A program made the position numbers and the translations under genes. Shown here piece after piece: positions 7,646 to 61,195 of a stretch of DNA of 64,000 nucleotides (position 1 is its first letter; every line of letters begins with the position of its first letter). Source of the DNA: Gemmatimonadales bacterium. Its GTDB lineage: Bacteria > Gemmatimonadota > Gemmatimonadetes > Gemmatimonadales > GWC2-71-9. The stretch spans positions 16,033 to 80,032 of the forward strand of contig DASYRI010000111.1 in the NCBI GenBank assembly GCA_036004545.1, read 5' to 3'. The notes under the pieces were generated by a model. That model was not told the DNA's origin. It saw nothing but the letters and a program-made list of their open reading frames with translations, and did not search any database.

Positions 7646-7790
7646 GACGCAATGACACAATGACGCAATGACGCAAAGACGCCAGGACGCAAAGACGCGA
7701 AGGCGGACGGGCGGACAGGTGGACAAACGGAATGACGGGAGGACGGAAAGACGGAGGTGTTCACCGTTGACCCTTGACCGTTGACGCAGT
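7646..7790. repeat. composite repeat block: GACGCAA-type x~7, GGCGGAC/GGACGG-type, CCGTTGAC-type x3
   Basis: Read directly: 7646-7699, 7700-7757 and 7762-7787. Confidence 0.9.
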
Positions 7791-7798
7791 TCGCGCCG

Positions 7799-9145
7799 TT
7801 ACCCACCCCCGCCCCCACCCCCGACCCACACCACCCGCCACACCCGTCCCCGCTGATCGTCCGTGATGAACAGCGCCCCGTCGGGTCCCTGGGCGAGCCC
7901 GGTGGGCCGATGGGCCGCGCCGCCCGGGTCCCGGGATCTGCCCGCGAAGTCGTCCGCGAAGGTTTCGAAGCTCGGGCCCAGGCGCCCGCCGCTCGCGGGG
8001 ACGAACACCACCTTGTACCCCGCCTGGGGCATCGGCGCGCGATTCCAGGAGCCGTGAAACGCGATGAACGCGCCGCCGCGGTAGCGCGCGGGGAACATCG
8101 CGCCGGCGTAGAGGAGGAGATCATCGGGGCCCCAATGACCGGGGAATCCGATCAGCGGCGGCTTCGCCGCGGCGCAGCGGCCCACGGTGGTGCCATCGCC
8201 CCCGTACTCCGGCGCGAGCACCTTCCGGCCCAGCGCGTTGTCGTGATAACAGTAGGGCCAGCCGAAGTCGTCGCCCCGCTCCACCTGAACCAGCTCCTCG
8301 GACGGCTGCTCGGCGCTCCGGGCGGCGGTGTACAGCGCGGGGAAGAGCGAGGCGAGCCCGTCGCGGCCGTGCGAAGCGGCGTAGAGACGGCGGGTCGTCG
8401 AGTCCCAGGCGATGCCGACGGCATTCCTCAGGCCCGTGGCCCAGCGCTCGCCCCGGCCGGGATGTTGCTGGTGAAGCTTCTCCGCGTCATAGCGCCAGAT
8501 CCCGGCCCGCTCCACGAGCTCGGGGCAGGGGTCGGGTCCGGTGCGCGTGCCGGCGTAGGTGCACACGTTGGAATCGGAGCCCACGTGGACGAACATGCCG
8601 CCGCGATCGTCGAAGGCCAGGCTCCTGCTGATGTGACCCCCGTTTGGGATCCCCTCGACGAGCGTTTCGGGGGCCGCCGCCGCGCTCATCCGATCGGGAC
8701 CGAGGCGGATCCGCTCCACCGTCGTGGTGGTGGAGTAGTAGAGCCAGTCGCCCCGGAGCGCGATGCCGGTGCCGCCGCCGGTCGCGATGCGGCGGACCAG
8801 GTCGGCGCGGCCGTCGCCGGAGGTGTCGCGGAGGATGGCGATCCCGCCAGGCTCCCGGCGGCGGCTGGTGCCCGCGCTGGTGCGGCTTCCGGGCTCCAGC
8901 GCCACGTACACGATGCCGTCCGGCCCGACGACGGCATGGCGGGCCACCCCGAGCGTGTCGGCGAAGATCGCCGCGCAGAAGCCGGCCGGGAGGGAGATCC
9001 CGCCGTTGTCGCGGTCGCACTCCGGATGGTCCGGAGAGGGTCCGGAGCGCGCCGCGCCGCAGGCAAGCAGCGCGGCCGACACGCCCAGGCCCACGCGGGC
9101 GCCGGCGGATCGCCCCGGCGGCGCCGGAGCAGCGGGAAGCCTCAT
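7799..9145 (-). CDS. PQQ-dependent sugar (glucose/sorbosone) dehydrogenase-like beta-propeller, secreted
   Basis: Signal/lipobox-like N-terminus, with DFGWPYCYHD and RPTGLAQGPDGALFITDD motifs. The C-terminus ends in GGGGGGG, encoded by repeat-like sequence. Confidence 0.8.
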   Translation of the reverse strand: MRLPAAPAPPGRSAGARVGLGVSAALLACGAARSGPSPDHPECDRDNGGISLPAGFCAAIFADTLGVARHAVVGPDGIVYVALEPGSRTSAGTSRRREPGGIAILRDTSGDGRADLVRRIATGGGTGIALRGDWLYYSTTTTVERIRLGPDRMSAAAAPETLVEGIPNGGHISRSLAFDDRGGMFVHVGSDSNVCTYAGTRTGPDPCPELVERAGIWRYDAEKLHQQHPGRGERWATGLRNAVGIAWDSTTRRLYAASHGRDGLASLFPALYTAARSAEQPSEELVQVERGDDFGWPYCYHDNALGRKVLAPEYGGDGTTVGRCAAAKPPLIGFPGHWGPDDLLLYAGAMFPARYRGGAFIAFHGSWNRAPMPQAGYKVVFVPASGGRLGPSFETFADDFAGRSRDPGGAAHRPTGLAQGPDGALFITDDQRGRVWRVVWVGGGGGGG

Positions 9146-27011: not shown

Positions 27012-27050
27012 GGGTTGGGGGTTGGGGGTTAGGGGTCAGGGGTCAGGGGG
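27012..27050. repeat. GGGGTTG/GGGGTCA heptamer array (5 units)
   Basis: GGGTTGGGGGTTGGGGGTTAGGGGTCAGGGGTCAGGGGG, upstream of the second ECF sigma gene. Confidence 0.85.
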
Positions 27051-29810: not shown

Positions 29811-29879
29811 AGGAGGTAGGAGGTAGCGAGGAGCGAGAAGGGGTGGTGGGGCGGCCCTCCTCGCTACTCGCTACCTCCT
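29811..29879. repeat. inverted GGAGGTA/GCGAGGA-type arms between the convergent MCO and leuS genes
   Basis: AGGAGGTAGGAGGTAGCGAGGAGCGAG ... CCCTCCTCGCTACTCGCTACCTCCT. Hairpin-capable, possibly a bidirectional terminator. Confidence 0.8.
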
Positions 29880-29895
29880 GCGTCCTCGGGCGCCC

Positions 29896-33732: not shown

Positions 33733-34398
33733 CTACGACGGGCCGGCCCGCTTGCCGAGCCCCGCGGCCAGCGCGTCGCGGAGCTGGCTGACCCGCTCCT
33801 CGGCCCGGCGGGCGAGCCGCCCCCAGAGAAGCCGCGCGCCGGCGAAGCTGAGCAGTCCCACCCCGCCCGCCACGCCCGCGGCGACCTCGGGCATTCCGCT
33901 GCCGAGCGCCGCCAGCGTGGCAAGGCCGGTGACCGCCCCCGCGATGAGGTACGACACCATCTTCTGCCCGCCGAATTCTCCCTCGACGCGGATTACGGCT
34001 TCGTCCTTTCCGGGCGCGACCGTCACCGCCAGCGAGCTGTACCCGGTGGAGCTCCGCCATTCGAGGGCGCCGGCGAGATCGCTGGGCTTGCCGGGGTCCC
34101 GGGTCACCCGGCGGATGATGGAGAGGAGCTCCGGATAGTCGGAGGGGGACACCGCTCCGGGTACCGCGCGGGTGGCGTAATACGAGGTGCCCGGGCCGCC
34201 GATGCCGGAACGCTCCGCCCCGGCGGTGAGCTCGTTCGCGGCGCGGGTGACCAGCTCCGCCGGGATCCCCACCTGCGCGGCGATCTGCCGGACCTCCTCC
34301 AGGGAGAATCGCCCTTCGTCGCCGGAGGCCTGGAGCGACGCGGCGCGCTTGAGGATCAGCGCCATCTGGCGGTCGGTGTACTTCGGCGTCTCACTCAT
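33733..34398 (-). CDS. hypothetical protein with C-terminal TM segments
   Basis: ATGA overlap with the upstream TPP-enzyme stop (34395-34398). Sensible composition, no recognised domain. Confidence 0.6.
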   Translation of the reverse strand: MSETPKYTDRQMALILKRAASLQASGDEGRFSLEEVRQIAAQVGIPAELVTRAANELTAGAERSGIGGPGTSYYATRAVPGAVSPSDYPELLSIIRRVTRDPGKPSDLAGALEWRSSTGYSSLAVTVAPGKDEAVIRVEGEFGGQKMVSYLIAGAVTGLATLAALGSGMPEVAAGVAGGVGLLSFAGARLLWGRLARRAEERVSQLRDALAAGLGKRAGPS

Positions 34399-36182
34399 GG
34401 CCCGGACCCCGCGAGCCGGCGCCGAAGGGCGCGGAGCACGAAGCGGAGGCGGTCGGGCCAGGGGAGCCGCGCCAGCATGGTCTTCACCACCCCCCGGGTG
34501 AACCAGGTCTTTTCGGAATAGTCGATCGCCACGTCCACCAGCACCGGCCGGCCCGACGCGACCACCGCGCGCGCCGCGGCGATGGTGTCCTCCACCTGCT
34601 CGTCGCGCTCGAGCGCCAGCCACTCGACCCCCACCGCTTCGGCGAGGCCCCCGGCGTGGAAATCGGGGAGCACGCTCGCGGTGCGGCGGTTGAACGCGGT
34701 GGCCTGGAACTGCGCGATCTGGGCGAGCTCGCGGTCGCGCAGCACGAATACCGCGATCGGCACCCCCTGGCTCGCCGCGGTGAGCAGCTCCAGCCCGGTC
34801 ATGAGGAGAGCGCCGTCGCCGGCCAGCGCCACGACCGGGCTGGCCGGCGCGCCCAGCTTCGCGCCGATGGCGGCGGGCACCGCATAGCCCATGCAGGAGT
34901 AATCCACCGGTGCGAGGAAGCGGCCCGGCCGCTCGAGGCGGAGACACTCCATCGCGAGGAAGGTGCCGTTTCCGCTGTCCGCGGTGAACACCGTTTCGGG
35001 GCCGAAGCCGCGCTGGAGCGCATCGAGGAGCACGAACGGGGTGACCCGGCCGGCGCTCCGCGCCGCGAGCCACGCCTTCCGAACGCCGGTGTGGCCCAGG
35101 CGGATCCGCTCGCGGAGCTCTCCGTCCGCCCGTCCGCCCGTCCGCCCGTCCGCCGCCTCTGCGTCCTCGCGTCCTTGCGTCTCTCCGAGCTCCGCGAGCA
35201 GCCCGGCGAGAAACTCCCGGGAATCCGCCGCAATCGCGAGCTCCGCCGGGTAGTTCCTCCCCAGCACGTCGGGATTGATGTCCACGTGGATGAGCCGCCC
35301 GGGCGGGGTGAGACCGTAGCCGCCGGTGCCCACTTCGCTGAACCGGCAGCCGATCGCGAGGGTTACGGCACGGTCCGCCGCGATGTCCCGCGCGAAAGGC
35401 GGCGCCGACCTGCCGAACCCGTTCCAGAGAAAGAGCGGGTGCGATTCCGGAAACACGCCCTTCCCCTGGATCGTGGTCGCGACCGGCGCCTCGAGAATCT
35501 CCGCCAGGGCCACGAGCTCGACCTGGGCGCCCTGCGCGCCGAGCCCGGCGTAGATGAGCGGCCTCGCGTCGGGCGCGCCGAGGAGGAGGGCGGCGCGGCC
35601 GAGCTCCTCCCGGTTGGGAGCCGGCGGCGAACCCGGGCTCGGCCCGGCCGTCCCCCACTCCCGGGGATCCACCTCGTGCCGGGTGAGGTAGAGGTCCACC
35701 GACACCTCGACCATCACCGGCCCCGGGGTGCCGCTTCGGGCGAGGGTGGAGGCGTCGCGGATGATCGAGTAGAGCTCGGCGCCGGTCGTGGGCGAAAAAG
35801 TACCCTTGGTGACGGGTCGGGCCATCGCGAGCTGATCCACGTCGTGGAGCTGGTAGGCGCGCCCCGGGCTCCGGCGGATTCCGCAGCCCAGCACCAGCAT
35901 CGGCACCCCGTCCATATAGGCCTCGGCGATGCCGGAGAGCGCGTGGGTGAGCCCGGCGCCGGGCACCAGGTTGACGCAGCCGAGCTCGCCCGACGCTCGC
36001 CAGAGGCCGTCGGCCATGAATCCGGCGCTCTGCTCGTCGGTGACCAGGACCGGCCGCACGACGCGGGAGTCCCTGAGCGCGTCGTAGAGCTCGATGTTGT
36101 GGGTGCCGGGGATGCCGAAGGCATGGCGGATGCCTTCAGCCTCCAGCGCTCTCACGACGATCTCCCCACCTGTCAGTTTCAT
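34395..36182 (-). CDS. thiamine-pyrophosphate-dependent enzyme (acetolactate-synthase-like fold)
   Basis: N-terminal TPP-Pyr domain (GIPGTHNIELYDAL) and C-terminal GDGALLM...motif. It contains a 63-nt repeat block in frame. Confidence 0.85.
   Translation of the reverse strand: MKLTGGEIVVRALEAEGIRHAFGIPGTHNIELYDALRDSRVVRPVLVTDEQSAGFMADGLWRASGELGCVNLVPGAGLTHALSGIAEAYMDGVPMLVLGCGIRRSPGRAYQLHDVDQLAMARPVTKGTFSPTTGAELYSIIRDASTLARSGTPGPVMVEVSVDLYLTRHEVDPREWGTAGPSPGSPPAPNREELGRAALLLGAPDARPLIYAGLGAQGAQVELVALAEILEAPVATTIQGKGVFPESHPLFLWNGFGRSAPPFARDIAADRAVTLAIGCRFSEVGTGGYGLTPPGRLIHVDINPDVLGRNYPAELAIAADSREFLAGLLAELGETQGREDAEAADGRTGGRADGELRERIRLGHTGVRKAWLAARSAGRVTPFVLLDALQRGFGPETVFTADSGNGTFLAMECLRLERPGRFLAPVDYSCMGYAVPAAIGAKLGAPASPVVALAGDGALLMTGLELLTAASQGVPIAVFVLRDRELAQIAQFQATAFNRRTASVLPDFHAGGLAEAVGVEWLALERDEQVEDTIAAARAVVASGRPVLVDVAIDYSEKTWFTRGVVKTMLARLPWPDRLRFVLRALRRRLAGSGP
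35121..35183. repeat. (CCGTCCGC)x4 plus TTGCGTC-type units, in frame inside the TPP-enzyme CDS
   Basis: 63 nt (21 codons), read as ETQGREDAEAADGRTGGRADG on the minus strand. Confidence 0.85.
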
Positions 36183-36195
36183 CTCACTCCTGCGA

Positions 36196-36312
36196 GGGGG
36201 CTGGGGAGCTGGGGAGCTAGGGGGCTAGGAGGAAGTGCCCGAGCTCCCTAGTTCCCTAGTCCCCTAGCTCCCTAGTTCCCTAGCTCCCTAGCTCCCTAGC
36301 CCCTAGCTCCCT
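36196..36312. repeat. inverted arrays of GGGAGCTAG / CTAGCTCCC octamers filling the whole intergenic gap
   Basis: Left arm 36196-36232, right arm 36241-36312 (about 9 units). The right arm includes the TAG stop of the GMC gene. Confidence 0.9.
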
Positions 36313-38273: not shown

Positions 38274-39536
38274 ATGTCCGGCACGATCGCGCCCAGCAGA
38301 GTTCCCCCGCTCGGGGCCGCCCCTCCGGTGGCTTCGGCGCCGCCGGCGGCTTCGCGTGCACCGGCGGTGGTGCGCACCGGCTACGCGGTCATCGCGGCCG
38401 CCGCGATGATAGCCATCGGACTCACCTGGGACATCGCCTGGCACCGGAGCGTGGGGCGCGACACCTTCTGGACCGCGCCGCACGTCGTCGAATACCTCGC
38501 GGCGCTGCTCGTCGGTGCGAGCTGCGGCGGGCTCATCCTGCGGAGCAGTTTCGTCGCGGGCGGCACGGGCCGCGAGCAGATGGTCCGCGTCTGGGGGTTC
38601 CGCGGCCCGTTCGGCGCCTGGGTCTCGGTGTGGGGGAGCCTCGCGATGCTCACCTCCGCGCCGTTCGACAACTGGTGGCACAACGCCTACGGCCTCGACG
38701 TCAAGATCGTGAGCCCGCCGCACATCCTGCTCCTGCTCGGCATGATCGGGATCGTGGCGGGGGCGATGCTCATGGCGCTGGCGGAGCAGAACCGCGCCAC
38801 CGACCGGGCGGCCCCCGCCCCGGCGGGGCAGGGGAGCCGCATCGCGGGCGAATTCGCGCCGGCGTTCGCGATCGCCTCCGGAATCCTTCTCCTCATGGTC
38901 GCGACCGCGACGTTCGAATACACCGGTTTCCCGAACCTCTGGCGGAGCCGGCTCTTTTACCAGATCTCCGCCGCGCTCTTCCCCCTGGTCCTCGCGGCGG
39001 CCGCCCGCGCCGGCCGGCTCCGCTGGCCCGCCACCGCGACCGCGGCGGTGTTCATGGGCGCGAGCCTGGTGATGAGCTGGGTCCTCCAGAATGTTCCGGC
39101 TGCTCCCAAGCTCGCGCCGATCAACAATCCGATCGAGCACCTGGTGCCGGCGCCGTTCCCGGTGGTGCTGGTGGTGCCCGCGCTGGTGTTCGATCTCCTC
39201 CACCGGTGGCTGGGCGACCGTCGCGACTGGCGGCTCTCCGCGCTGCTCGGCCTGGGGTTCGTGCTGTCGCTGCTCGCGATCAGCTGGCCGATGTCCACCT
39301 TCCTGCTCTCCCCCGCGGCTCGGAACCCCGTCTTCCTCGCAGACCAGTGGGACTACACCGCACGGCTTGGGCCCTGGCGTTACGAATTCTGGGATGACCT
39401 CCGCACCGGGGCCCGGGCGCTCCGGGCCGGAGGGGCCGCCCTCGGCAAGCCGCTCGCGATCGCGGTGGTGCTCGCCTTCGTCTCGGCCCGGCTCGGGCTC
39501 TGGTGGGGCGGGTGGATGCGGCGGGTCAGACGGTAG
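38274..39536 (+). CDS. polytopic membrane protein, unknown function
   Basis: GGAGGG upstream of the ATG, at least 8 hydrophobic segments, and Trp/His-rich motifs (WDIAWHRS, FDNWWHNAYGLD). Confidence 0.65.
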   Translation: MSGTIAPSRVPPLGAAPPVASAPPAASRAPAVVRTGYAVIAAAAMIAIGLTWDIAWHRSVGRDTFWTAPHVVEYLAALLVGASCGGLILRSSFVAGGTGREQMVRVWGFRGPFGAWVSVWGSLAMLTSAPFDNWWHNAYGLDVKIVSPPHILLLLGMIGIVAGAMLMALAEQNRATDRAAPAPAGQGSRIAGEFAPAFAIASGILLLMVATATFEYTGFPNLWRSRLFYQISAALFPLVLAAAARAGRLRWPATATAAVFMGASLVMSWVLQNVPAAPKLAPINNPIEHLVPAPFPVVLVVPALVFDLLHRWLGDRRDWRLSALLGLGFVLSLLAISWPMSTFLLSPAARNPVFLADQWDYTARLGPWRYEFWDDLRTGARALRAGGAALGKPLAIAVVLAFVSARLGLWWGGWMRRVRR

Positions 39537-39634
39537 AACGGTCAACGGTCAGCGGTCAACGGAACCTGCCTTGCACGCAGAGATCGGCGCGCACGGGGCT
39601 GTTCCCGTTGACCGTTGACCGTTGACTGTTGACG
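39536..39634. repeat. inverted GTCAACGG / CCGTTGAC arms with a ~41-nt spacer
   Basis: 39536-39562 versus 39604-39634, directly after the stop of the 38274..39536 gene. Confidence 0.9.
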
Positions 39635-39658
39635 TAGTTCTTCTGCGGGGGAGAGACG

Positions 39659-41191: not shown

Positions 41192-41195
41192 GCAT

Positions 41196-41310
41196 CAGGC
41201 GGACAGGCAGTCGGGCGGACAGGCGGTCAGGCGGTCAGGCGGACAGGCGGTCAGTTAGTCCGTCGGTTCACCATTTCCGCCCTTCCGCCTATCCGCCGTT
41301 CCGCCTTTCC
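41196..41310. repeat. GGCGGACAG/GGCGGTCAG array followed by an inverted TTCCGCC-type array
   Basis: 41196-41254 and 41276-41310, between the 39659..41191 stop and the kinase start. Confidence 0.85.
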
Positions 41311-47830: not shown

Positions 47831-50218
47831 ATGGCCGAGCTCTGGGAGCAGCTTCAGGCCACGCTGGGCGGCGCCTACACGCTGGAGCGCGAGCTGGGCG
47901 GCGGCGGGATGTCGCGGGTTTTCGTGGCCACCGAACGGCGCCTCGGCCGCCGGGTGGTGGTGAAGGTCCTGCGCTCCGAGATCGCGGCCGGAACCAGCGC
48001 GGAGCGGTTCGAGCGGGAGATGGCGCTCTGTGCCCGCTGCCACCATCCCCACATCGTCCCGCTCCTCGCCGCGGGCGAGGTCGGCGGCCTTCCCTGGTTC
48101 ACGATGCCGCTGGTGGAGGGGGAATCGCTCCGCGACCGGCTGGAGCGGCAGGGCCCGCTGCCCGTGGGGGAGGCGGTGCGCCTGCTGACCGAAGTGGCCG
48201 ATGCCCTGGCCTACGCGCACCGCCTGGGCATCGTCCATCGCGACATCAAGCCCGAGAACATCCTGCTCCACGACGGCCACGCCGTCGTCGCCGACTTCGG
48301 GGTGGCCAAGGCCTTCCACGCCGCGACCCGGGCCGAGCTCCCGTCGCAGGCCACCGGCGTCGGCGTCGTGATCGGCACGCCGGCCTACATGGCACCCGAA
48401 CAGGCGATGGGTGACGCCGGCGTGGACCATCGGGTGGATCTCTACGCGCTCGGCGTGGTGGCCTTCGAGCTCCTCACCGGCCAGCACCCGTTCAGTGGGA
48501 TGACTCCTCAGGCGATCCTCGCGGCGCAGCTGAACCGGACTCCGCCGCCGATCGCGCGGGCACGTCCCGAGTGTCCGCCCGGGCTCGCGGCGCTGATCGG
48601 CCGGCTGCTCGCGCGGGAGCCCGCGGACCGCCCGGCGACGGCGGAGGAGGTGCGCGCCGAGCTCCTCGCCCTGGCGGGCGGCGCCGCCGCTCACGCCGGA
48701 AGCCGGCCTCCGGGCCGTCGGGTCTGGCTCGCGGTCGGGGCTCCCTTCCTCGCCGCATCGCTGCTGTTGATCGCGCTGGCCGCCCGGCATCGCCCGAATC
48801 CAAGGCCGGCGCCGGCCTCCGGCGATGCCGGAGTGAAATCGCTGGCGGTGCTTCCCTTTCAGAACATCGGAGGAGACTCGACCACCAACTACTTCAGCGA
48901 TGGGCTGGCCGAGGAGCTGATCAGCGCGCTGGGCCGGCTCGGGGGTCTCCGGGTGGCGTCGCGCACCTCCGCGTTCGCCGCCAAGGCGCGGAGCGGCGAC
49001 CTGCGCGAAATCGGACAGCGCCTCGCCGTGGCGACGGTGCTCGAGAGCAGCGTGCGCCGCGATGGTCCCCGGGTCCGGGTCACCACCCGCCTGGTGGACG
49101 TCGCGCGCGATTCCCAGCTCTGGACCGGAGAGTACGAGAGCCGGCTCGAGAACGTCTTTGCGGTGCAGGACACCATCGCCCACGCCATCGCGGGGGCGCT
49201 CCGGATCACCCTGGCCCGCGGAGGGGGAGCGCGGCTGGTCGCCCAGGGCACCGCCGATCCGGAGGCGCACGACCTGTACCTGCGGGGCCGCGAGTTCCTC
49301 GCCAATCGGACGCCGGTCTCGCTGCGGAAGGCGATCGACGCCTTCCGCGCGGCGCTGGCCCGGGACTCGACCTACGCGCTGGCCCAGGCGGGCCTCGCCG
49401 ATGCCTACAGCCTGGCCGTGCCGTTTGGCGGCTTCTACCCCGCCGAGGCGATTCCGCTGGCCGAGACCGCGGCCCACCGGGCGCTCGCGCTGGATTCCAC
49501 GCTGGCGGAGGTGCACGTCTCCCTCGGCATCATCGCGATGTTTCACGACTGGGACTGGAGGGAGGCGAGCCGGCGCCTTTCCCGCGCCGTCCAGCTCAAC
49601 CCAAGCTCGGCGCAGGCGCGGCTGTTCCATGCCTGGTACCTCCTGCTGACCGGCCGTCCCGAGGAAGGGCTGGCCGAAGTCGAGCGGGCGAGGACGCTGG
49701 ATCCGCTCTCGCTGATCATCAACACGCGGGTGGCGAGCTTCCTGCACTTCATGGGGCGCGACGCGGAGGCCATTCCCGCCTTCCAGCGTGCCCTCGCGCT
49801 CGACTCCACGTTCGCGCCCGCCCGGGCCGGGCTCGCGCTTTCCTATGCGGAGCTCGGGCGCTTCAAGGAGGCGCTGTCCCTTCCCGCCCCCCTCGAATCC
49901 CTGCTGGGGACCTTCGAGGCGGGCACGTTCGCCGCGGTGCAGGCGATGGCGGGCCGCCCCTTCGAGGCAAGGCGGATTCTGGGCGAAATGGAAACGGTTC
50001 GGAAGCAGCGCTACATGGGAGCGGAGGGATTCGCCGACGTGCGCGCGGTCCTGGGAGATACCGACGCGGCGTTCGCCGAGCTGGAGCGGGGCTATCGGGA
50101 GCGTGCGTTCACGCTCGTCACCATCCGGGTCGAGCCGATGCTCGCCCCACTCCACGCCGATCCGCGCTGGGGCCGGCTCATGGCACGGCTCAATTTTCCG
50201 CCTGCGCCCACCCGTTAA
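47831..50218 (+). CDS. Ser/Thr protein kinase with TM, periplasmic TolB-N-like module and TPR repeats
   Basis: GGGMSRVF, VVK, HRDIKPEN, DFG, APE; then SLAVLPFQNIGGDSTTNYFSDGLAEELI; then TPR-like repeats. Confidence 0.9.
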   Translation: MAELWEQLQATLGGAYTLERELGGGGMSRVFVATERRLGRRVVVKVLRSEIAAGTSAERFEREMALCARCHHPHIVPLLAAGEVGGLPWFTMPLVEGESLRDRLERQGPLPVGEAVRLLTEVADALAYAHRLGIVHRDIKPENILLHDGHAVVADFGVAKAFHAATRAELPSQATGVGVVIGTPAYMAPEQAMGDAGVDHRVDLYALGVVAFELLTGQHPFSGMTPQAILAAQLNRTPPPIARARPECPPGLAALIGRLLAREPADRPATAEEVRAELLALAGGAAAHAGSRPPGRRVWLAVGAPFLAASLLLIALAARHRPNPRPAPASGDAGVKSLAVLPFQNIGGDSTTNYFSDGLAEELISALGRLGGLRVASRTSAFAAKARSGDLREIGQRLAVATVLESSVRRDGPRVRVTTRLVDVARDSQLWTGEYESRLENVFAVQDTIAHAIAGALRITLARGGGARLVAQGTADPEAHDLYLRGREFLANRTPVSLRKAIDAFRAALARDSTYALAQAGLADAYSLAVPFGGFYPAEAIPLAETAAHRALALDSTLAEVHVSLGIIAMFHDWDWREASRRLSRAVQLNPSSAQARLFHAWYLLLTGRPEEGLAEVERARTLDPLSLIINTRVASFLHFMGRDAEAIPAFQRALALDSTFAPARAGLALSYAELGRFKEALSLPAPLESLLGTFEAGTFAAVQAMAGRPFEARRILGEMETVRKQRYMGAEGFADVRAVLGDTDAAFAELERGYRERAFTLVTIRVEPMLAPLHADPRWGRLMARLNFPPAPTR

Positions 50219-50272
50219 CTGTTAACCGTTCGCCGTTCACGGCCCCGTCCCCTGACCCCTGACCCCTGTCCT
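50212..50272. repeat. CCGTTAAC-type units followed by CCCCTGA heptamers
   Basis: Fills the 52-nt gap between convergent genes and includes both stop codons (TAA 50216-50218 and the complement of CTA 50271-50273). Confidence 0.85.
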
Positions 50273-51456: not shown

Positions 51457-52758
51457 GTGAAACGGCGCGACTTCAACCGGCATCTCCTTGGGGCGGCGGC
51501 CGCCGCCCTCCTGCCGCCCTGGTCCTCCCGCCAGGCTGGGCTCCGGGTGGACGGTGCCCGGATCCTCGCCCACCTCGCCGCCCTCGCCGAGCTCGGGAAG
51601 AATGAGCGGGGAGGTGTCAGCCGGGTCGCGTACACCGAATCCGACCGGCAGGGCCGCGAGGTGGGGATGGGCTGGATGCGCGAAGCGGGGCTTGAGACCA
51701 CGGTGGACGCGGCAGCCAACCTGGTCGGCCGCCGCTCCGGGCGGGACGCGTCGCTCAAGCCGATCGTCCTCGGCTCCCACATCGACTCGGTGCCCCAGGG
51801 CGGAAACTACGACGGCGACGTCGGCTCGCTCTCCGCCATCGAGGTGGCGCGTACCCTCGATACGGCGGGTCTGACGCTCCGCCACCCGCTCGAGGTGCTG
51901 ATCTTCCAGAACGAGGAGGGTGGCACGATCGGAAGCCACGCGATCGCGACGGGCCTGAGCGAGGCCGAGCTGGGCCGCGTGGCCCAGAGCGGCAAGACGA
52001 TCCGGGAGGGAATCCGCTTCCTCGGCGGCGATCCCGACCGGCTGGAGTCGGCGCGCCGCAAGCCGGGCGACATCGCCGGGTATCTGGAGCTCCACATCGA
52101 GCAGGGCGGCGTCCTCGACGAGCGCAAGATCCCGATCGGGGTGGTCCTCGGAATCGTGGGGATCCGGCACTGGGACGTCACGATCGAGGGCTTCGCGAAC
52201 CACGCCGGCACCACCCCGATGGACCGGCGGAAGGACGCGCTGCTCACCGCCGCGCGGAGCATCGAGGCGGTCAATCGCCTGGTGCGCGCCACGCCCGGCC
52301 GCCAGGTGGGGACGGTCGGAAGGATCCAGGCAGCGCCGGGCGCCTATAATGTGATCCCTGACAGGGTTACCTTCGGACTCGAGCTGCGCGACCTGGACGA
52401 GGCGAAAATCCTCCGGCTGCACCGGCAGATCATCGCGGAGTGCCGGCGGCTCGCCCGCGCGGACGGTACCACGCTCTCGGAGAAGGAGACCCTCGCCATC
52501 ACCCCCGCCTTCTCCGACCCCCGGATCCGCCGCGTCATCGCGGAGGCCGCGCGCGTGCTCGGACTTGCCACGCTCGCGCTGCCGAGCGGGGCGGGCCACG
52601 ACGCGCAGGAGATGGCGCGGCTCGGCCCCGTGGGCATGATCTTCATTCCAAGCGTGGGCGGCATCAGCCACTCGCCCAGAGAATTCTCCCGCCCCGCCGA
52701 CATCGAGCGCGGCGCCAACGTCCTGCTCCACGCGCTCCTCGCCCTCGATGCCGCGTGA
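51457..52758 (+). CDS. M20-family amidohydrolase (allantoate / N-carbamoyl-L-amino-acid amidohydrolase type) with a Tat-like signal
   Basis: KRRDFNRHLLGAAAAALL, GSHIDSVPQGGNYDGDVG and HAGTTPM motifs. GTG 51457 is chosen; ATG 51391 is an alternative. Confidence 0.85.
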   Translation: MKRRDFNRHLLGAAAAALLPPWSSRQAGLRVDGARILAHLAALAELGKNERGGVSRVAYTESDRQGREVGMGWMREAGLETTVDAAANLVGRRSGRDASLKPIVLGSHIDSVPQGGNYDGDVGSLSAIEVARTLDTAGLTLRHPLEVLIFQNEEGGTIGSHAIATGLSEAELGRVAQSGKTIREGIRFLGGDPDRLESARRKPGDIAGYLELHIEQGGVLDERKIPIGVVLGIVGIRHWDVTIEGFANHAGTTPMDRRKDALLTAARSIEAVNRLVRATPGRQVGTVGRIQAAPGAYNVIPDRVTFGLELRDLDEAKILRLHRQIIAECRRLARADGTTLSEKETLAITPAFSDPRIRRVIAEAARVLGLATLALPSGAGHDAQEMARLGPVGMIFIPSVGGISHSPREFSRPADIERGANVLLHALLALDAA

Positions 52759-53254
52759 GGCCGTGACGGTGTCCCGCAAGCTGCTGGCCATCGCCGGCCC
52801 GGGCGAGGGTGCGTCCGCCGAGGCCGTCGCCGATGCCGAGCGGATCGGCGAGCTCGCCGCGAGCGCGGGCTGGGTGGTGATCTGCGGCGGACGGAACGCC
52901 GGCGTCATGGCGGCCGCGGCGCGCGGGGCCGCGCGGGCGGGCGGCATCGCGCTGGGCCTGCTCCCGTCGCCCGACGACCGCGACACGGCGCCGGGGCTCA
53001 CCGCCGCGCTCGCCACCGGGCTCGGCGAGGCGCGGGACGCCGTGCTCGCGCAGAGCTGCCACGCGATGGTGGTCTGCGGGATGAGCGCCGGCACGGCGGC
53101 GGAAGTGGCGCTCGCGATCAGGGCGTGGAAGCCGGTGGTGCTGGTCCGGCCCGACCGCGCCGCCGAAGAGTTTCTGGGCGGCCTGAGCGGCGACCGGGTC
53201 TTCGTCGTGAGCGACGCCGATCAGGCCGTCGCCCTGCTCATGACGAGCAGCTGA
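52748..53254 (+). CDS. TIGR00725/LOG-like Rossmann-fold protein
   Basis: VICGGRNAGVMAAAARGA...GG and MSAGTAAEVALA patterns. It overlaps the upstream stop by 11 nt and converges on selO with a 17-nt overlap. Confidence 0.65.
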   Translation: MPREAVTVSRKLLAIAGPGEGASAEAVADAERIGELAASAGWVVICGGRNAGVMAAAARGAARAGGIALGLLPSPDDRDTAPGLTAALATGLGEARDAVLAQSCHAMVVCGMSAGTAAEVALAIRAWKPVVLVRPDRAAEEFLGGLSGDRVFVVSDADQAVALLMTSS

Positions 53255-54755
53255 CCGGGACCTCGGGCGAGCCGGCGACGGGGGGCTCGGCGTACCGCGC
53301 CATGCCGGGATGCTCGGCGAACGGATCCGCGAGGAGGCGGCGCAGCTCCTCGATGAGCCCCAACTCCCTCGCCTCGGCCCGCTCGATGGCCTCCTGCGCG
53401 ATCCAGTTCCGGAGCACGTACTTCGGATTCACCCGCCGCATCCGCGCCGCCCGCTCGGCGTCCACGCTCCCTTCGGCGCCCAAGCGTGCCGAGTAGCGCT
53501 CGAGCCAGGCGTCGATGCCCCTGCGATCGGCGAACAGCGATTGGACAACCCTGTTCACCGTTGACCGTTGACCGTTGACGCTGTCCAGACTGTTCTCGTT
53601 GACTGTTGACTGTTGACTGTTGATGCGGTCGAGCTCCCGGAAAAAGCGGGCGTAGTCGACCCGCCCTTCCTGGAGAAGCGCCAGCGCGTCCCGCACCAGC
53701 CCCGCGTCCTCTTCCCGCTCGGTCGCGAGGCCGAGCTTCGCCCGCATCAGCCGGCCGTACTCGCCGGCGAACTCCTCGCGATAGCTCTCGAGCTCCGCCT
53801 GCGCCGCCTCCAGGTCAACCAGGGACAGCAGCGCCTCGCCGAGCCGGGCGCAGTTCCAGAGTCCCACCGCCGGCTGCCGATCGAACCCGTAGCGGCCTTC
53901 GGTGTCGGAGTGATTGCAGATGAATCCCGCGTCGTACTGGTCGAGGAAGCCGTAAGGTCCGTAGTCGAGGGTCAGGCCCAGTACCGACATATTGTCGGTG
54001 TTCATCACGCCGTGCGCGAAGCCGGCCGCCATCCAGCCGGCGATGAGCCGGCCGGTGCGGCGGCACACCTCGCCGAAGAAGCGGCGGTAGCGGTCGTCGG
54101 CCGGCGAGCCGCCCAGCGCGGCGAAATGCTTCGCGATCACGTAGTCCGCGAGCTCCCGAACGCGTTCCGTCTCGCCCCGAGCCGCGAAGTACTCGAAGGT
54201 CCCGAACCGGACGTGGCTCGGGCTCTGGCGCAGCAGGGTCGCGGCGGTCTCGATCCGCTCCCGCTGCACCGGGAGATCGCTCCCGACGATGGCGAGCGCA
54301 CGCGTCGTGGGGATGCCCAGGCCGTGGAGCGCCTCGCCGGCGAGATACTCGCGGATCGCGGAGCGCAGGACCGAGCGGCCGTCGCCCCCGCGGGAAAAGC
54401 GGGTGGTGCCGCCGCCCTTCAAGTGGAGATCCCAAGACTCGCCGCGGGAATTCCGCACCTCGCCCAGGAGAAACGCGCGGCCGTCGCCGAGCCGGGGGAC
54501 CCAGACGCCGAACTGGTGGCCGGCGTACGCCTGGGCGATCGGCTCCGCGCCGGGCATCCGCTTCGCCCCGCTCAGGCAGCGCGGCAGGTCGGCATCCGCC
54601 GACGCCGCGGGGTCGAGCTCGAGCAGCTCGGCGGCGTCAGGGTTGAAGGCGACCAGGTACGGATCGGGAAGCGGCGTCGGGTCCACCACCTCGTAGAACG
54701 CCGGGTGGAGCCGGGCGTAGCTGTTGTGGAACGGGAGGCGGGTCAGGGAAGCCAC
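53238..54755 (-). CDS. selO: protein adenylyltransferase SelO (YdiU family)
   Basis: LPFHNSYARLHPAFY, YAGHQFG, LGDGRA, GVMNTDNMS and DYGPYGF motifs. It contains repeat-derived sequence in frame. Confidence 0.9.
   Translation of the reverse strand: MASLTRLPFHNSYARLHPAFYEVVDPTPLPDPYLVAFNPDAAELLELDPAASADADLPRCLSGAKRMPGAEPIAQAYAGHQFGVWVPRLGDGRAFLLGEVRNSRGESWDLHLKGGGTTRFSRGGDGRSVLRSAIREYLAGEALHGLGIPTTRALAIVGSDLPVQRERIETAATLLRQSPSHVRFGTFEYFAARGETERVRELADYVIAKHFAALGGSPADDRYRRFFGEVCRRTGRLIAGWMAAGFAHGVMNTDNMSVLGLTLDYGPYGFLDQYDAGFICNHSDTEGRYGFDRQPAVGLWNCARLGEALLSLVDLEAAQAELESYREEFAGEYGRLMRAKLGLATEREEDAGLVRDALALLQEGRVDYARFFRELDRINSQQSTVNENSLDSVNGQRSTVNRVVQSLFADRRGIDAWLERYSARLGAEGSVDAERAARMRRVNPKYVLRNWIAQEAIERAEARELGLIEELRRLLADPFAEHPGMARYAEPPVAGSPEVPVSCSS
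53553..53625. repeat. two CCGTTGAC/CTGTTGAC arrays in frame inside selO
   Basis: 53556-53580 and 53595-53625, read on the minus strand as INSQQSTVNENSLDSVNGQRSTVN. Confidence 0.9.
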
Positions 54756-61146: not shown

Positions 61147-61195
61147 CCACCTGTCCGCCCGTCCGCCTGTCCATCCTTCCGTCATTGCGTCTTCC
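61147..61195. repeat. reverse-complement GGCGGAC-type plus GACGCAA-type units overlapping the DUF502 stop
   Basis: CCACCTGTCCGCCCGTCCGCCTGTCCATCCTTCCGTCATTGCGTCTTCC. Its first 21 nt are the exact reverse complement of 7702-7722. Confidence 0.85.

What the first reader, a model, noticed from the sequence alone, without database searches (positions are those of the whole stretch)
53553..53625. Repeat module C is embedded in frame inside the conserved selO gene
The SelO reading frame runs straight through two arrays of CCGTTGAC/CTGTTGAC units, the same units (including an identical 22-mer) that form the intergenic hairpin at 39604-39634. On the coding strand they read INSQQSTVNENSLDSVNGQRSTVN. 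This Asn/Ser/Thr/Gln-rich, lower-GC patch sits in an otherwise Ala/Arg/Gly-rich protein, between ...VDYARFFRELDR and ...VVQSLFADRRGIDAWLERY. It looks like an intergenic-type repeat element that was inserted or expanded inside a CDS without breaking the frame.
Basis: partly seen in the sequence, partly recalled or inferred. Interest (0 to 1): 0.55.

Follow-up and report, generated by a model that had tools for sequence, protein, structure and literature searches.

The report
Intergenic heptamer repeat translated within selO
A short 7-base tandem repeat, which in this Gemmatimonadales genome normally forms hairpins between genes, also sits in frame in a floppy loop of the conserved enzyme SelO, where it is translated and evolves as DNA repeat rather than as protein.

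Summary
selO (53238-54755, minus strand, 505 aa) reads straight through two direct arrays, 53598-53624 (GTCAACA type) and 53553-53579 (GTCAACG type). The unit is 7 nt, not 8. The arrays share a 22-mer and flanking bases with intergenic copies at 39605-39633 and 7758-7790.

They are one arm of a genome-wide family of 7-8-nt tandem arrays. Intergenic copies often form inverted pairs that fold into very stable hairpins just after stop codons.

It is not a recent insertion. Many Gemmatimonadales SelO orthologs (67-80% identity) carry one array in a loop of normal length. Only the window lineage has a second arm (+45 nt, +15 aa).

The array evolves at the DNA level:
- Unit variants switch in concert.
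- They match the intergenic family of the same genome (GTCAAC or GTGAAC).
- They fail to switch only where an in-frame TGA would arise.
- Copy number changes by three units.

AlphaFold places the patch in a low-confidence loop. The closest known relatives are cyanobacterial STRR heptamer repeats and the in-frame Rickettsia palindromic elements. The most likely reading is a tolerated passenger sequence. This is a new variant of known kinds and of moderate interest.

The parts
53238..54755 (-). selO/ydiU coding sequence (505 aa), intact, with conserved C-terminal part in the same frame downstream of the repeat patch
53598..53624 (-). Array 1 (coding strand ATCAACA GTCAACA GTCAACA GTCAAC), residues I378-N386 'INSQQSTVN'. 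This is the array shared with orthologs
53580..53597 (-). 18-nt spacer (coding strand GAGAACAGTCTGGACAGC), residues E387-S392. It carries the family's right flank (G[AG]GAACAG) and left flank (ACAGC)
53553..53579 (-). Array 2 (coding strand GTCAACG x3 GTGAAC), residues V393-N401 'VNGQRSTVN'. Lineage-specific second arm, 94% identical over 33 nt to the intergenic copy at 7758-7790
39524..39562 (+). Left arm (GGTCAAC x5.3) of the intergenic module-C hairpin. It overlaps the stop codon (39534-39536) of the upstream gene
39605..39633 (+). Right arm (CCGTTGA x4.1) of the same hairpin, containing the 22-mer shared with selO. The hairpin 39515-39645 folds at -72 kcal/mol, z=-6.5
7758..7790 (+). Single intergenic module-C arm at the end of a mosaic of 8-mer arrays (7646-7755)
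35116..35185 (-). Parallel case in the same window: octamer arrays (GACGCRAG x3 + GGCGGACG x4) in frame in the inter-domain linker of a ThDP enzyme (ORF 34395-36182)

Best explanation
The patch is a coding-embedded copy of a genome-wide family of short tandem heptamer arrays (here called module C). Each arm is AC[AT]GC-(GTCAACR)3-4-G(G)GAACAG. In selO there are two direct arms.

Between genes these arms usually come as inverted pairs directly after stop codons and fold into very stable hairpins. A role as transcript 3'-end or terminator structures is inferred, not shown.

One arm lies in a variable, poorly ordered loop between two helices of the C-terminal part of SelO. Its orientation is the only one without stop codons. 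It is translated as V-N-[G/S]-Q-[R/Q]-S-T.

This arm is ancient within a Gemmatimonadales clade. The window lineage added a second arm (+15 aa).

The sequence is governed by DNA-level repeat dynamics rather than by protein function. Replication slippage changes copy number, and only steps of three units survive. Homogenisation, probably ectopic gene conversion or templated repair from the many intergenic copies, keeps the units alike and in step with the genome's own family variant. Selection for an intact SelO frame vetoes only the changes that would create a stop.

For the enzyme the patch is most likely a tolerated passenger.

Shown: the anatomy, the sharing with orthologs, the concerted unit changes, the stop veto, the three-unit steps and the loop location. 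Inferred: gene conversion as the homogenising process, neutrality for SelO, and the function of the intergenic hairpins.
For: Family membership:
- The 22-mer and flanks are shared with intergenic copies. There is 94% identity over 33 nt to 7758-7790, including the degenerate end unit GTGAACA.
- Intergenic copies in relatives have the same design. L167 3176-3289 is stop-ACAGC(GTCAACR)4...(GTTGACY)4GCTGT-stop. L164 1416-1520 and L171 21664-21700 are similar.
- The intergenic pair at 39515-39645 folds at -72 kcal/mol (z=-6.5). The selO segment has no structure (z=+1.05).

Age:
- Orthologs L162, L167, L163, L166, L081, L164, L165 and L168-L170 (67-80% aa identity) carry a 4-unit array at the same place.

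DNA-level evolution:
- VNSQQST and VNGQRST differ by A/G at every 7th base.
- Against L163 the array is 36/39 identical, where third codon positions elsewhere are 54% identical (P=0.002).
- GTGAAC-type selO arrays occur in the genome whose two intergenic copies are also GTGAAC (L164/L171). GTCAAC-type arrays occur where intergenic copies are GTCAAC (window, L166, L167).
- In the five GTGAAC-type arrays, all 16 units read in frames 1 or 2 are GTGAAC. All 6 units where G-TGA-AC would be in frame are GTCAAC, GTTAAC, GTTCAC or GTTAGC (Fisher 1.3e-5).
- L165 has 7 units against 4 (+21 nt).
- In the ThDP linker, L172 has exactly 3 more octamers (+24 nt) than the window at 91% aa identity.

Orientation:
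- GTTGACC has TGA in every frame, while GTCAACR has no stop in any frame.

Loop:
- In the AlphaFold2 model (mean pLDDT 89) residues 381-400 have pLDDT 55-63. Residues 378-392 are coil between helices 368-377 and 393-405.
- Between the window and L161 the loop differs at 7 of 75 nt, against 1.4% elsewhere.
- Sister lineages have same-length decayed loops.
Against: - Co-variation of the selO unit with the genome's intergenic unit rests on four genomes, only one of which is GTGAAC type (two intergenic copies).
- The neighbour-joining tree has no support values. One ancient acquisition with decay cannot be separated from repeated acquisition at the same loop. The loop flanks differ between the 'SVNG..TLSAMF' and 'YCVNG..RGSP' groups.
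- No reads were available, so within-population length variation is untested.
- DNA conservation above the synonymous expectation would also fit a selected nucleic-acid function.
- Nothing here measures SelO activity with or without the loop.
- The spatial distance of the loop from the active site was not computed.
Confidence: 0.7

Rival explanations
1. The array inside selO is a selected nucleic-acid element. It could be a binding site on DNA or mRNA for a factor that recognises heptamer arrays, for example a regulator or nucleoid/RNA-binding protein that also acts on the intergenic copies. In that case its sequence follows the factor's specificity.
For: - The array is more conserved at the DNA level than synonymous sites elsewhere in the gene.
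- Its unit variant matches the intergenic family of the same genome.
- Units of several modules (GACGCAAW, GACGGAAA, GTCAACR) recur across different Gemmatimonadales genomes.
- GTCAACR arrays also exist in Cyanobacteria and Caldilinea.
- MacGregor 2015 proposed heptamer-binding proteins such as CspB or S1 for TAACTGA repeats (PMC4679880).
Against: - The array has decayed by point mutation in many sister lineages that keep selO.
- The selO copy lacks the inverted partner that characterises most intergenic copies, and it has no predicted structure.
- No promoter-like or terminator-like site is found there.
- The same kind of embedding in the ThDP-enzyme linker uses different units in different lineages. 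That fits a permissive site better than a specific site.
Confidence: 0.12
2. The Asn/Ser/Thr/Gln-rich loop has a protein-level function in SelO, for example as a regulatory or auto-modification segment. SelO AMPylates Ser/Thr/Tyr, which I state from my own knowledge. The repeat structure would then be incidental.
For: - The peptide VN[GS]Q[RQ]STVN recurs in many orthologs.
- It contains Ser and Thr.
- The second array is predicted as a weak helix.
Against: - Changes between variants are concerted at 7-nt spacing and include synonymous GTC to GTG changes in units 1 and 4 together with Q to E in unit 2.
- The loop is not conserved outside this clade, and it is replaced by unrelated sequence of equal length in sister lineages.
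- pLDDT is 55-63.
- The loop is the fastest-changing part of the gene between the window and L161.
Confidence: 0.06
3. The patch is a recent transposition of a REPIN/MITE-like mobile element into selO in this genome.
For: - The second arm is specific to the window lineage.
- It is 94% identical, flanks included, to the copy at 7758-7790.
- The intergenic copy at 39524-39633 is an inverted doublet like a REPIN.
Against: - The first array is shared by orthologs down to 67% identity.
- The arms are tandem heptamers, not imperfect palindromes.
- No target duplication or terminal inverted repeats are visible.
- No RAYT or transposase was looked for or seen.
- A 45-nt gain is equally explained by local duplication followed by homogenisation.
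Confidence: 0.08
4. The heptamer tract is a contingency (phase-variation) switch. Gain or loss of one 7-nt unit would frameshift selO on or off.
For: - The unit length is not a multiple of three, and the tract lies inside a CDS.
- Copy number does vary in the family.
Against: - There are only 3-4 perfect units per tract.
- All length differences seen are multiples of three units, or otherwise in frame.
- No truncated or frameshifted variant was seen, although protein databases would under-report these.
Confidence: 0.04

Closest known systems
STRR (short tandemly repeated repetitive) heptanucleotide sequences of filamentous cyanobacteria. PMC2670836 was read. The Mazel et al. 1990 units, including CAACAGT, are from memory.
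   Same: - Tandem 7-nt units, dispersed and mostly intergenic, able to form hairpins between genes, with function unknown.
- The same unit: STVNGQR/STVNSQQ repeat peptides, which are GTCAACG/GTCAACA arrays, turn up in tiny spurious ORFs of Calothrix, Microcoleus and Oscillatoriales.
- GTCAACA is a circular permutation of CAACAGT.
   Different: - The host is a 70%-GC Gemmatimonadales bacterium.
- The arrays are short (3-10 units) and combined in mosaics with 8-nt modules.
- A copy is translated inside conserved enzymes.
- In-frame occupation of a conserved enzyme, with co-variation and a stop veto, was not found in the papers I could read.
TAACTGA heptamer direct repeats of marine Beggiatoaceae, Cyanobacteria and Bacteroidetes (MacGregor 2015, PMC4679880)
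   Same: - Heptamer direct repeats, mostly intergenic, with a patchy distribution across phyla.
- One orientation has stops in all frames, so only the reverse orientation can be coding.
- A few copies lie inside ORFs, mostly at protein peripheries.
   Different: - TAACTGA repeats sit just upstream of start codons and are not described as hairpin pairs.
- The ORF cases are mostly hypothetical proteins or termini, not an internal loop shared by many orthologs.
Rickettsia palindromic elements (RPE) inserted in frame in protein genes (Ogata et al. 2000, from memory)
   Same: A dispersed non-coding-type repeat is found both between genes and in frame within conserved genes. It is translated and tolerated at surface positions.
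   Different: - RPEs are 100-150-bp palindromic elements that add a whole peptide segment.
- Here the piece is a 27-nt tandem heptamer arm, and the single arm does not lengthen the loop.
REP/REPIN elements (Bertels and Rainey 2011, PMC3116915; Di Nocera 2013, PMC3733652)
   Same: Intergenic inverted doublets that form long hairpins, with genome-specific sequence variants evolving within a genome.
   Different: - The arms are tandem repeats, not single imperfect palindromes.
- Module C has no GTAG/CGTC tag.
- No RAYT was identified.
Small dispersed repeats (SDR, 21-27 nt) of Nostoc, often embedded in heptamer arrays. Elhai et al. 2008: the reference was confirmed, but its content is from memory.
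   Same: A 24-nt insert (CCTTCGCTGCGCTCAGGGCAGGCT) sits exactly between units 2 and 3 of the selO array in L166. It is present or absent among relatives more than 90% identical.
   Different: No second copy of the 24-mer was found in the DNA held, so dispersal is unshown.

Membership tests
SelO/YdiU protein family (host gene) | Full-length match to the SelO profile and to solved SelO/YdiU structures | tested here: met
   PF02696 E=2.3e-134 over residues 6-470. 6iii, 9jym, 6k20 and 6eac match at E about 1e-127 to 1e-132 over the full length. The window protein carries every column that is invariant in the 92-sequence alignment it belongs to.
STRR-type heptamer repeats | Tandem repeats of a 7-nt unit | tested here: met
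   TRF period 7, 3.7-5.3 copies, 95-100% matches at 53553-53623, 39524-39633 and 7759-7785.
STRR-type heptamer repeats | Many dispersed copies, predominantly intergenic | tested here: met
   There are 2.5 period-7/8 arrays per 10 kb in 15 Gemmatimonadales sources, against 0.09 per 10 kb in 152 other loci. In loci with gene calls, all arrays outside selO and the ThDP enzyme lie between genes. A whole-genome count was not possible.
STRR-type heptamer repeats | Inverted arrays able to form hairpins between genes | tested here: met
   39515-39645 folds at -72 kcal/mol, z=-6.5. L167 3176-3289 and L164 1416-1520 have the same design. The selO copy itself does not fold.
STRR-type heptamer repeats | Host range: filamentous/heterocystous cyanobacteria | tested here: not met
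   Source names for the closest proteins are Gemmatimonadales. The same unit does occur in Calothrix, Microcoleus and Caldilinea.
In-frame repeat insertions of the RPE kind | The same repeat family present between genes and in frame in a conserved gene, with the frame kept | tested here: met
In-frame repeat insertions of the RPE kind | Palindromic element of about 100-150 bp that adds a peptide segment relative to orthologs | tested here: not met
   The arms are 27-nt direct heptamer arrays with no hairpin. Single-array orthologs have a loop of normal length. Only the second arm adds 15 aa.
In-frame repeat insertions of the RPE kind | Located at the protein surface, away from the functional core | tested here: inconclusive
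   The AF2 model shows coil and low pLDDT (55-63) at residues 378-400, between well-predicted helices. Solvent exposure and distance to the active site were not computed.
REP/REPIN | Each repeat is a 20-40-nt imperfect palindrome, with a GTAG or CGTC tag | tested here: not met
   The arms are tandem heptamers without internal palindrome. Tag criterion from PMC3733652.
REP/REPIN | Associated RAYT (IS200/IS605-like) transposase in the genome | not tested
   Only a few window ORFs were scanned. The whole genome is not available.
Phase-variable simple-sequence contingency locus | Long tract with population variants differing by single units that shift the frame | tested here: not met
   There are 3-4 units per tract. 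All observed length differences keep the frame: +3 units in L165, +24 nt in L166, +45 nt in the window. Read-level data were not available.

The most novel reading that the evidence does not exclude
Gemmatimonadales, along with Cyanobacteria and Chloroflexota that share the very same GTCAACR unit, may carry an undescribed, actively maintained system of modular 7-8-nt tandem-array elements. A dedicated trans-acting machinery (a transposase-like, RNA-templated or array-binding activity) would write and homogenise these arrays genome-wide. It would do so even inside coding loops of conserved enzymes such as SelO and a ThDP enzyme, and only stop codons would hold it back. The selO array would then be a live target of that system rather than a fossil.
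Probability: 0.15. Interest if true: 0.75.

Novelty: new variant of a known kind. Interest (0 to 1): 0.5.

Why it matters
This is a clean natural example of a non-coding repeat family and a protein-coding frame competing for the same bases. The repeat is kept uniform and in step with its intergenic relatives. Selection on the enzyme intervenes only where a stop codon would arise.

If general, variable loops and linkers of Gemmatimonadales proteins are partly written by repeat dynamics. That matters for alignment, for annotation (spurious small ORFs, odd low-complexity inserts) and for ideas on how new peptide segments arise.

It also extends STRR-like heptamer arrays, whose function in cyanobacteria is still unknown, to a second phylum with the same unit. 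That makes comparative tests of their function possible.

Tried and rejected
- The locus scans of genome contigs and metagenome contigs were saturated by conserved SelO motifs. Ortholog DNA came from exact-protein look-ups instead.
- Rfam at gathering threshold found nothing in the window.
- The promoter/terminator consensus scan of 53300-53900 found nothing. An internal sigma-70 promoter from the TTGAC motifs was rejected.
- The selO mRNA segment has no significant structure, so a hairpin inside the gene was rejected.
- The 24-nt insert of L166 was not found elsewhere in the held DNA.
- The peptide search with (STVNGQR)n found only tiny spurious ORFs, not further domain proteins. Four-unit arrays are below its sensitivity.
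- Literature: no paper on such repeats in Gemmatimonadota was found. Mazel 1990 and Elhai 2008 are not held, so their content is cited from memory.
- Assembly artefact was rejected because of the independent assemblies.
Full report
**1. Observation**

The + strand at 53553-53624 reads GTTCACC GTTGACC GTTGACC GTTGAC - GCTGTCCAGACTGTTCTC - GTTGACT GTTGACT GTTGACT GTTGAT. Tandem Repeats Finder reports period 7 for both arrays, at 95-100% matches. The unit is therefore a heptamer.

The minus-strand ORF 53238-54755 (505 aa) runs through the patch as ...FFRELDR INSQQSTVN ENSLDS VNGQRSTVN RVVQSLFADRRGIDAW.... It is SelO/YdiU:
- Pfam PF02696, E=2e-134.
- PDB 6iii, 9jym, 6k20 and 6eac, E=1e-127 to 1e-132 over the full length.

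Other points of the observation also hold:
- The 22-mer CCGTTGACCGTTGACCGTTGAC is shared exactly with 39605-39626.
- The motif GTTGACYGTTGAC (at most 1 mismatch) occurs 14 times in three loci, against 0.07 expected.
- The patch is 50% GC against 71% for the rest of the gene.
- The same loop is found in independent assemblies: P0121, P0122 (NCBI HEV8356604.1, Gemmatimonadales MAG) and the 97%-identical L161.

**2. What the repeat is**

The window carries many short arrays of 7-8-nt units. With two exceptions, all of them lie between the probable genes.

- Several are inverted pairs. 39524-39562 against 39605-39633 is GGTCAAC/GTTGACC. 36192-36229 against 36255-36292 is AGGGAGCT/AGCTCCCT. 29811-29842 against 29855-29886 is a third pair.
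- The pair at 39515-39645 folds at -72 kcal/mol, z=-6.5. Its left arm overlaps the stop codon of the upstream gene.
- Others are mosaics. 7646-7785 is GACGCAAW, then GGCGGACR, then GACGGAAR, then GTTGACC. A related mosaic lies in inverse orientation at 61147-61193.

Period-7/8 arrays occur at 2.5 per 10 kb in 15 Gemmatimonadales sources. In 152 loci from other bacteria the rate is 0.09 per 10 kb, or 0.15 among those above 65% GC.

Module-C elements in relatives have the same architecture:
- L167 3176-3289 is TAA-ACAGC-(GTCAACR)4-GG...GC-rich centre...CC-(GTTGACY)4-GCTGT-TTA. It exactly fills the gap between two convergent genes.
- L164 1416-1520 is TGA-ACAGC-(GTGAACR)4...(GTTCACN)4.
- L171 21664-21700 is TGA-ACAGC-(GTGAACN)4.

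The selO arrays carry these same flanks. Array 2 is ACAGC-GTCAACG x3-GTGAACA-GG, 94% identical over 33 nt to 7758-7790. Array 1 ends ...GTCAACG[A/G]GAACAG, like the inner end of the arm at 39601-39633. The patch is therefore two direct copies of one arm of this hairpin family. As expected for direct copies, the selO mRNA segment has no structure (z=+1.05).

**3. History in selO**

Among the 120 closest homologs, all from Gemmatimonadales-type sources, many carry VNSQQSTVN, VNGQRSTVNG or CVNGEPLTVN at the same place.

| Source | aa identity to window | Array in selO |
|---|---|---|
| L162 | 78% | (GTCAACA)4 |
| L167 | 73% | GTCAACA x3 + GTCAACG |
| L163 | 69% | (GTCAACG)4 |
| L170 | not given | (GTCAACG)4 |
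| L081 | 67% | GTGAACG GTGAACA GTCAACG GTGAACG |
| L164 / L169 | L164 70% | GTGAACR GTGAACC GTTAACC GTGAACA |
| L168 | not given | as L164/L169, but third unit GTTCACC |
| L165 | not given | seven units |

More distant Gemmatimonadota (L001, L002, L003, L082, at 59-68%) have none, and neither do the other phyla.

The distance between the flanking anchors (FFR to NPxxxLRN) shows how loop length behaves:
- Window and L161: 68 aa.
- Single-array orthologs: 49-54 aa.
- 103 other bacteria: median 50 aa (range 42-60, plus one of 89).

A single array therefore occupies a loop of ordinary length. The window lineage alone gained a second arm of 45 nt (15 aa).

A neighbour-joining tree puts array-bearing proteins in at least three clusters. 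Each cluster is mixed with sisters that have same-length but decayed loops. Within 90% clusters both perfect and decayed versions occur, for example P0167 against P0028. The tree has no support values, so a single origin and repeated capture remain open.

**4. DNA-level behaviour**

(a) Concerted unit changes. VNSQQST and VNGQRST differ by A/G at each seventh base. GTCAAC and GTGAAC differ at each unit, including synonymous GTC/GTG changes in units 1 and 4.

(b) Conservation. Against L163 the array is 36/39 identical, while third codon positions in the rest of the gene are 54% identical and all positions 72% (P=0.002).

(c) Co-variation with the genome's own family.
- The window, L166 and L167 have GTCAAC both in selO and in intergenic copies.
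- The genome of L164/L171 (one 1.3-Mb contig) has GTGAAC in selO and in both intergenic copies seen.

(d) Stop veto. (GTGAACN)3 contains an in-frame TGA in every frame. In the five GTGAAC-type selO arrays, all 16 units read as GTG-AAC or .GT-GAA-C are GTGAAC. All 6 units that would read ..G-TGA-AC are GTCAAC, GTTAAC, GTTCAC or GTTAGC (Fisher 1.3e-5; the lineages are not all independent).

(e) Orientation. GTTGACC has TGA in every frame and GTCAACR has no stop in any frame. Only the observed orientation can be coding.

(f) Frame-preserving length change.
- L165 has 7 units against 4 (+21 nt).
- L166 and its relatives have a 24-nt insert exactly between units 2 and 3. The insert is present or absent among proteins more than 90% identical.

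(g) Local instability. The window and L161 are 98.6% identical outside the loop, but differ at 7 of 75 nt within it and at more sites just 3' of array 2.

**5. Protein context**

AlphaFold2 on a 92-sequence alignment gives mean pLDDT 89 and pTM 0.92. Residues 381-400 have pLDDT 55-63. Residues 378-392 are coil between helices 368-377 and 393-405. E. coli/Salmonella YdiU have a short loop here (SLTEQHSAASP), with a 15-residue gap in the alignment. Exposure and distance to the catalytic site were not computed.

**6. It is not unique to selO**

- In the same window the ThDP enzyme ORF 34395-36182 (minus strand) carries GACGCRAG x3 + GGCGGACG x4 in frame (ETQGREDAEAADGRTGGRADGE). The segment lies in the linker between TPP_enzyme_M (ends at residue 327) and TPP_enzyme_C (starts at residue 402).
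- Its 91%-identical ortholog L172 has exactly three more octamers, +24 nt.
- Other orthologs have 8-aa-periodic linkers built from other units or the opposite orientation, such as SRPAVQPS x3 in P0257 and AGAGGGGC x4 in L171.
- L082's SelO has an in-frame octamer inverted pair in a different loop, at about residues 206-235.

**7. Comparison with what is known**

- Heptamer tandem repeats that form hairpins between genes are known in filamentous cyanobacteria as STRR, with function unknown (PMC2670836).
- A search with (STVNGQR)n found only tiny spurious ORFs in Calothrix, Microcoleus, Oscillatoriales and Caldilinea. The same GTCAACR arrays therefore exist in those groups. From memory, Mazel et al. 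1990 list CAACAGT as one STRR unit, which is a circular permutation of GTCAACA.
- MacGregor 2015 described TAACTGA heptamer repeats with stops in all frames in one orientation and a few ORF-embedded copies.
- In-frame, translated copies of an intergenic repeat are classically known from Rickettsia palindromic elements (from memory).
- REPINs share the hairpin-doublet design, but not the tandem-unit arms (PMC3116915).
- I found no report of such arrays in Gemmatimonadota. Rfam has no matching family.

**8. Verdict**

The patch is best explained as a passenger copy of an STRR-like hairpin family. It lies in a permissive SelO loop, is kept repeat-like by slippage and homogenisation with its intergenic relatives, and is policed only by the reading frame.

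It is a new variant of known kinds: STRR-like repeats in a new phylum, and in-frame embedding of tandem arrays rather than palindromic elements. Interest is moderate. The more novel possibility is an active, dedicated array-writing or array-binding system shared across phyla. That is not excluded, but nothing here supports it directly.

Noticed in passing
window 35116-35185 (minus strand, inside ORF 34395-36182): Octamer arrays (GACGCRAG x3 + GGCGGACG x4) lie in frame in the M-to-C domain linker of a ThDP (acetolactate-synthase-like) enzyme. Ortholog L172 (91% identity) has exactly 3 more units. Other orthologs have 8-aa-periodic linkers built from other units or the opposite orientation.
   Followed up: partly
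window 7646-7850 and 61147-61193: A mosaic intergenic element runs in a fixed order of modules: GACGCAAW x6.6, GGCGGACR x3, GACGGAAR x3.6, GTTGACC x3.9, then a C-rich CCCACC tract. A 47-nt stretch recurs in inverse orientation 53 kb away (83% complementary).
   Followed up: partly
window 36192-36312; L172 1800-1890: An AGGGAGCT/AGCTCCCT inverted array pair lies upstream of the ThDP gene. It is conserved at the orthologous site in L172, but with different copy numbers.
   Followed up: partly
window 29811-29886: A tandem-array hairpin (AGGAGGT/AGCGAGG against its complement, 88% complementary, 12-nt loop) lies between two convergent genes, in a terminator-like position.
   Followed up: no
window 41195-41310: Directly after a stop codon there is (CAGGCGGW) x7.5, followed by (TTCCGCCN) x4.6. 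The two arrays are partly complementary. They lie upstream of a Ser/Thr kinase gene.
   Followed up: no
window 50212-50268 and 27012-27049: Further heptamer arrays are present: CCGTTAA-type (a degenerate module C), CCCCTGA, GGGTTGG and GGGGTCA. CCCCTGA and GGGGTCA are complementary units at two distant sites. A CCCTGAC/GGTCAGR pair also occurs in L163 6640-6703.
   Followed up: no
L082 1293-1379 (inside its selO gene 676-2196): A different in-frame octamer inverted pair (CGTCTCGG x4 ... CAGACGTC x4) lies in another SelO loop, at about residues 206-235, in a 63%-identical Gemmatimonadota ortholog.
   Followed up: partly
L166 10053-10077 (inside its selO array): A 24-nt insert (CCTTCGCTGCGCTCAGGGCAGGCT, peptide PFAALRAG) sits exactly between heptamer units 2 and 3. 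It is present or absent among proteins more than 90% identical, and similar inserts occur in P0036, P0042 and P0025. This is reminiscent of cyanobacterial SDR micro-elements, but no second copy was found in the held DNA.
   Followed up: partly
window 53238-53254: selO and the convergent LDcluster4-family gene (52748-53254, + strand) overlap by 17 nt at their 3' ends. The overlap is conserved in L161, L162, L164, L165 and L167-L170.
   Followed up: no
L163 8667-9020; L166 7452-7805: A 23S_rRNA_IVP (four-helix-bundle) gene lies next to the proline dehydrogenase-selO pair in two relatives. From memory, this family is also abundant in cyanobacteria that have STRRs. No link was tested.
   Followed up: no
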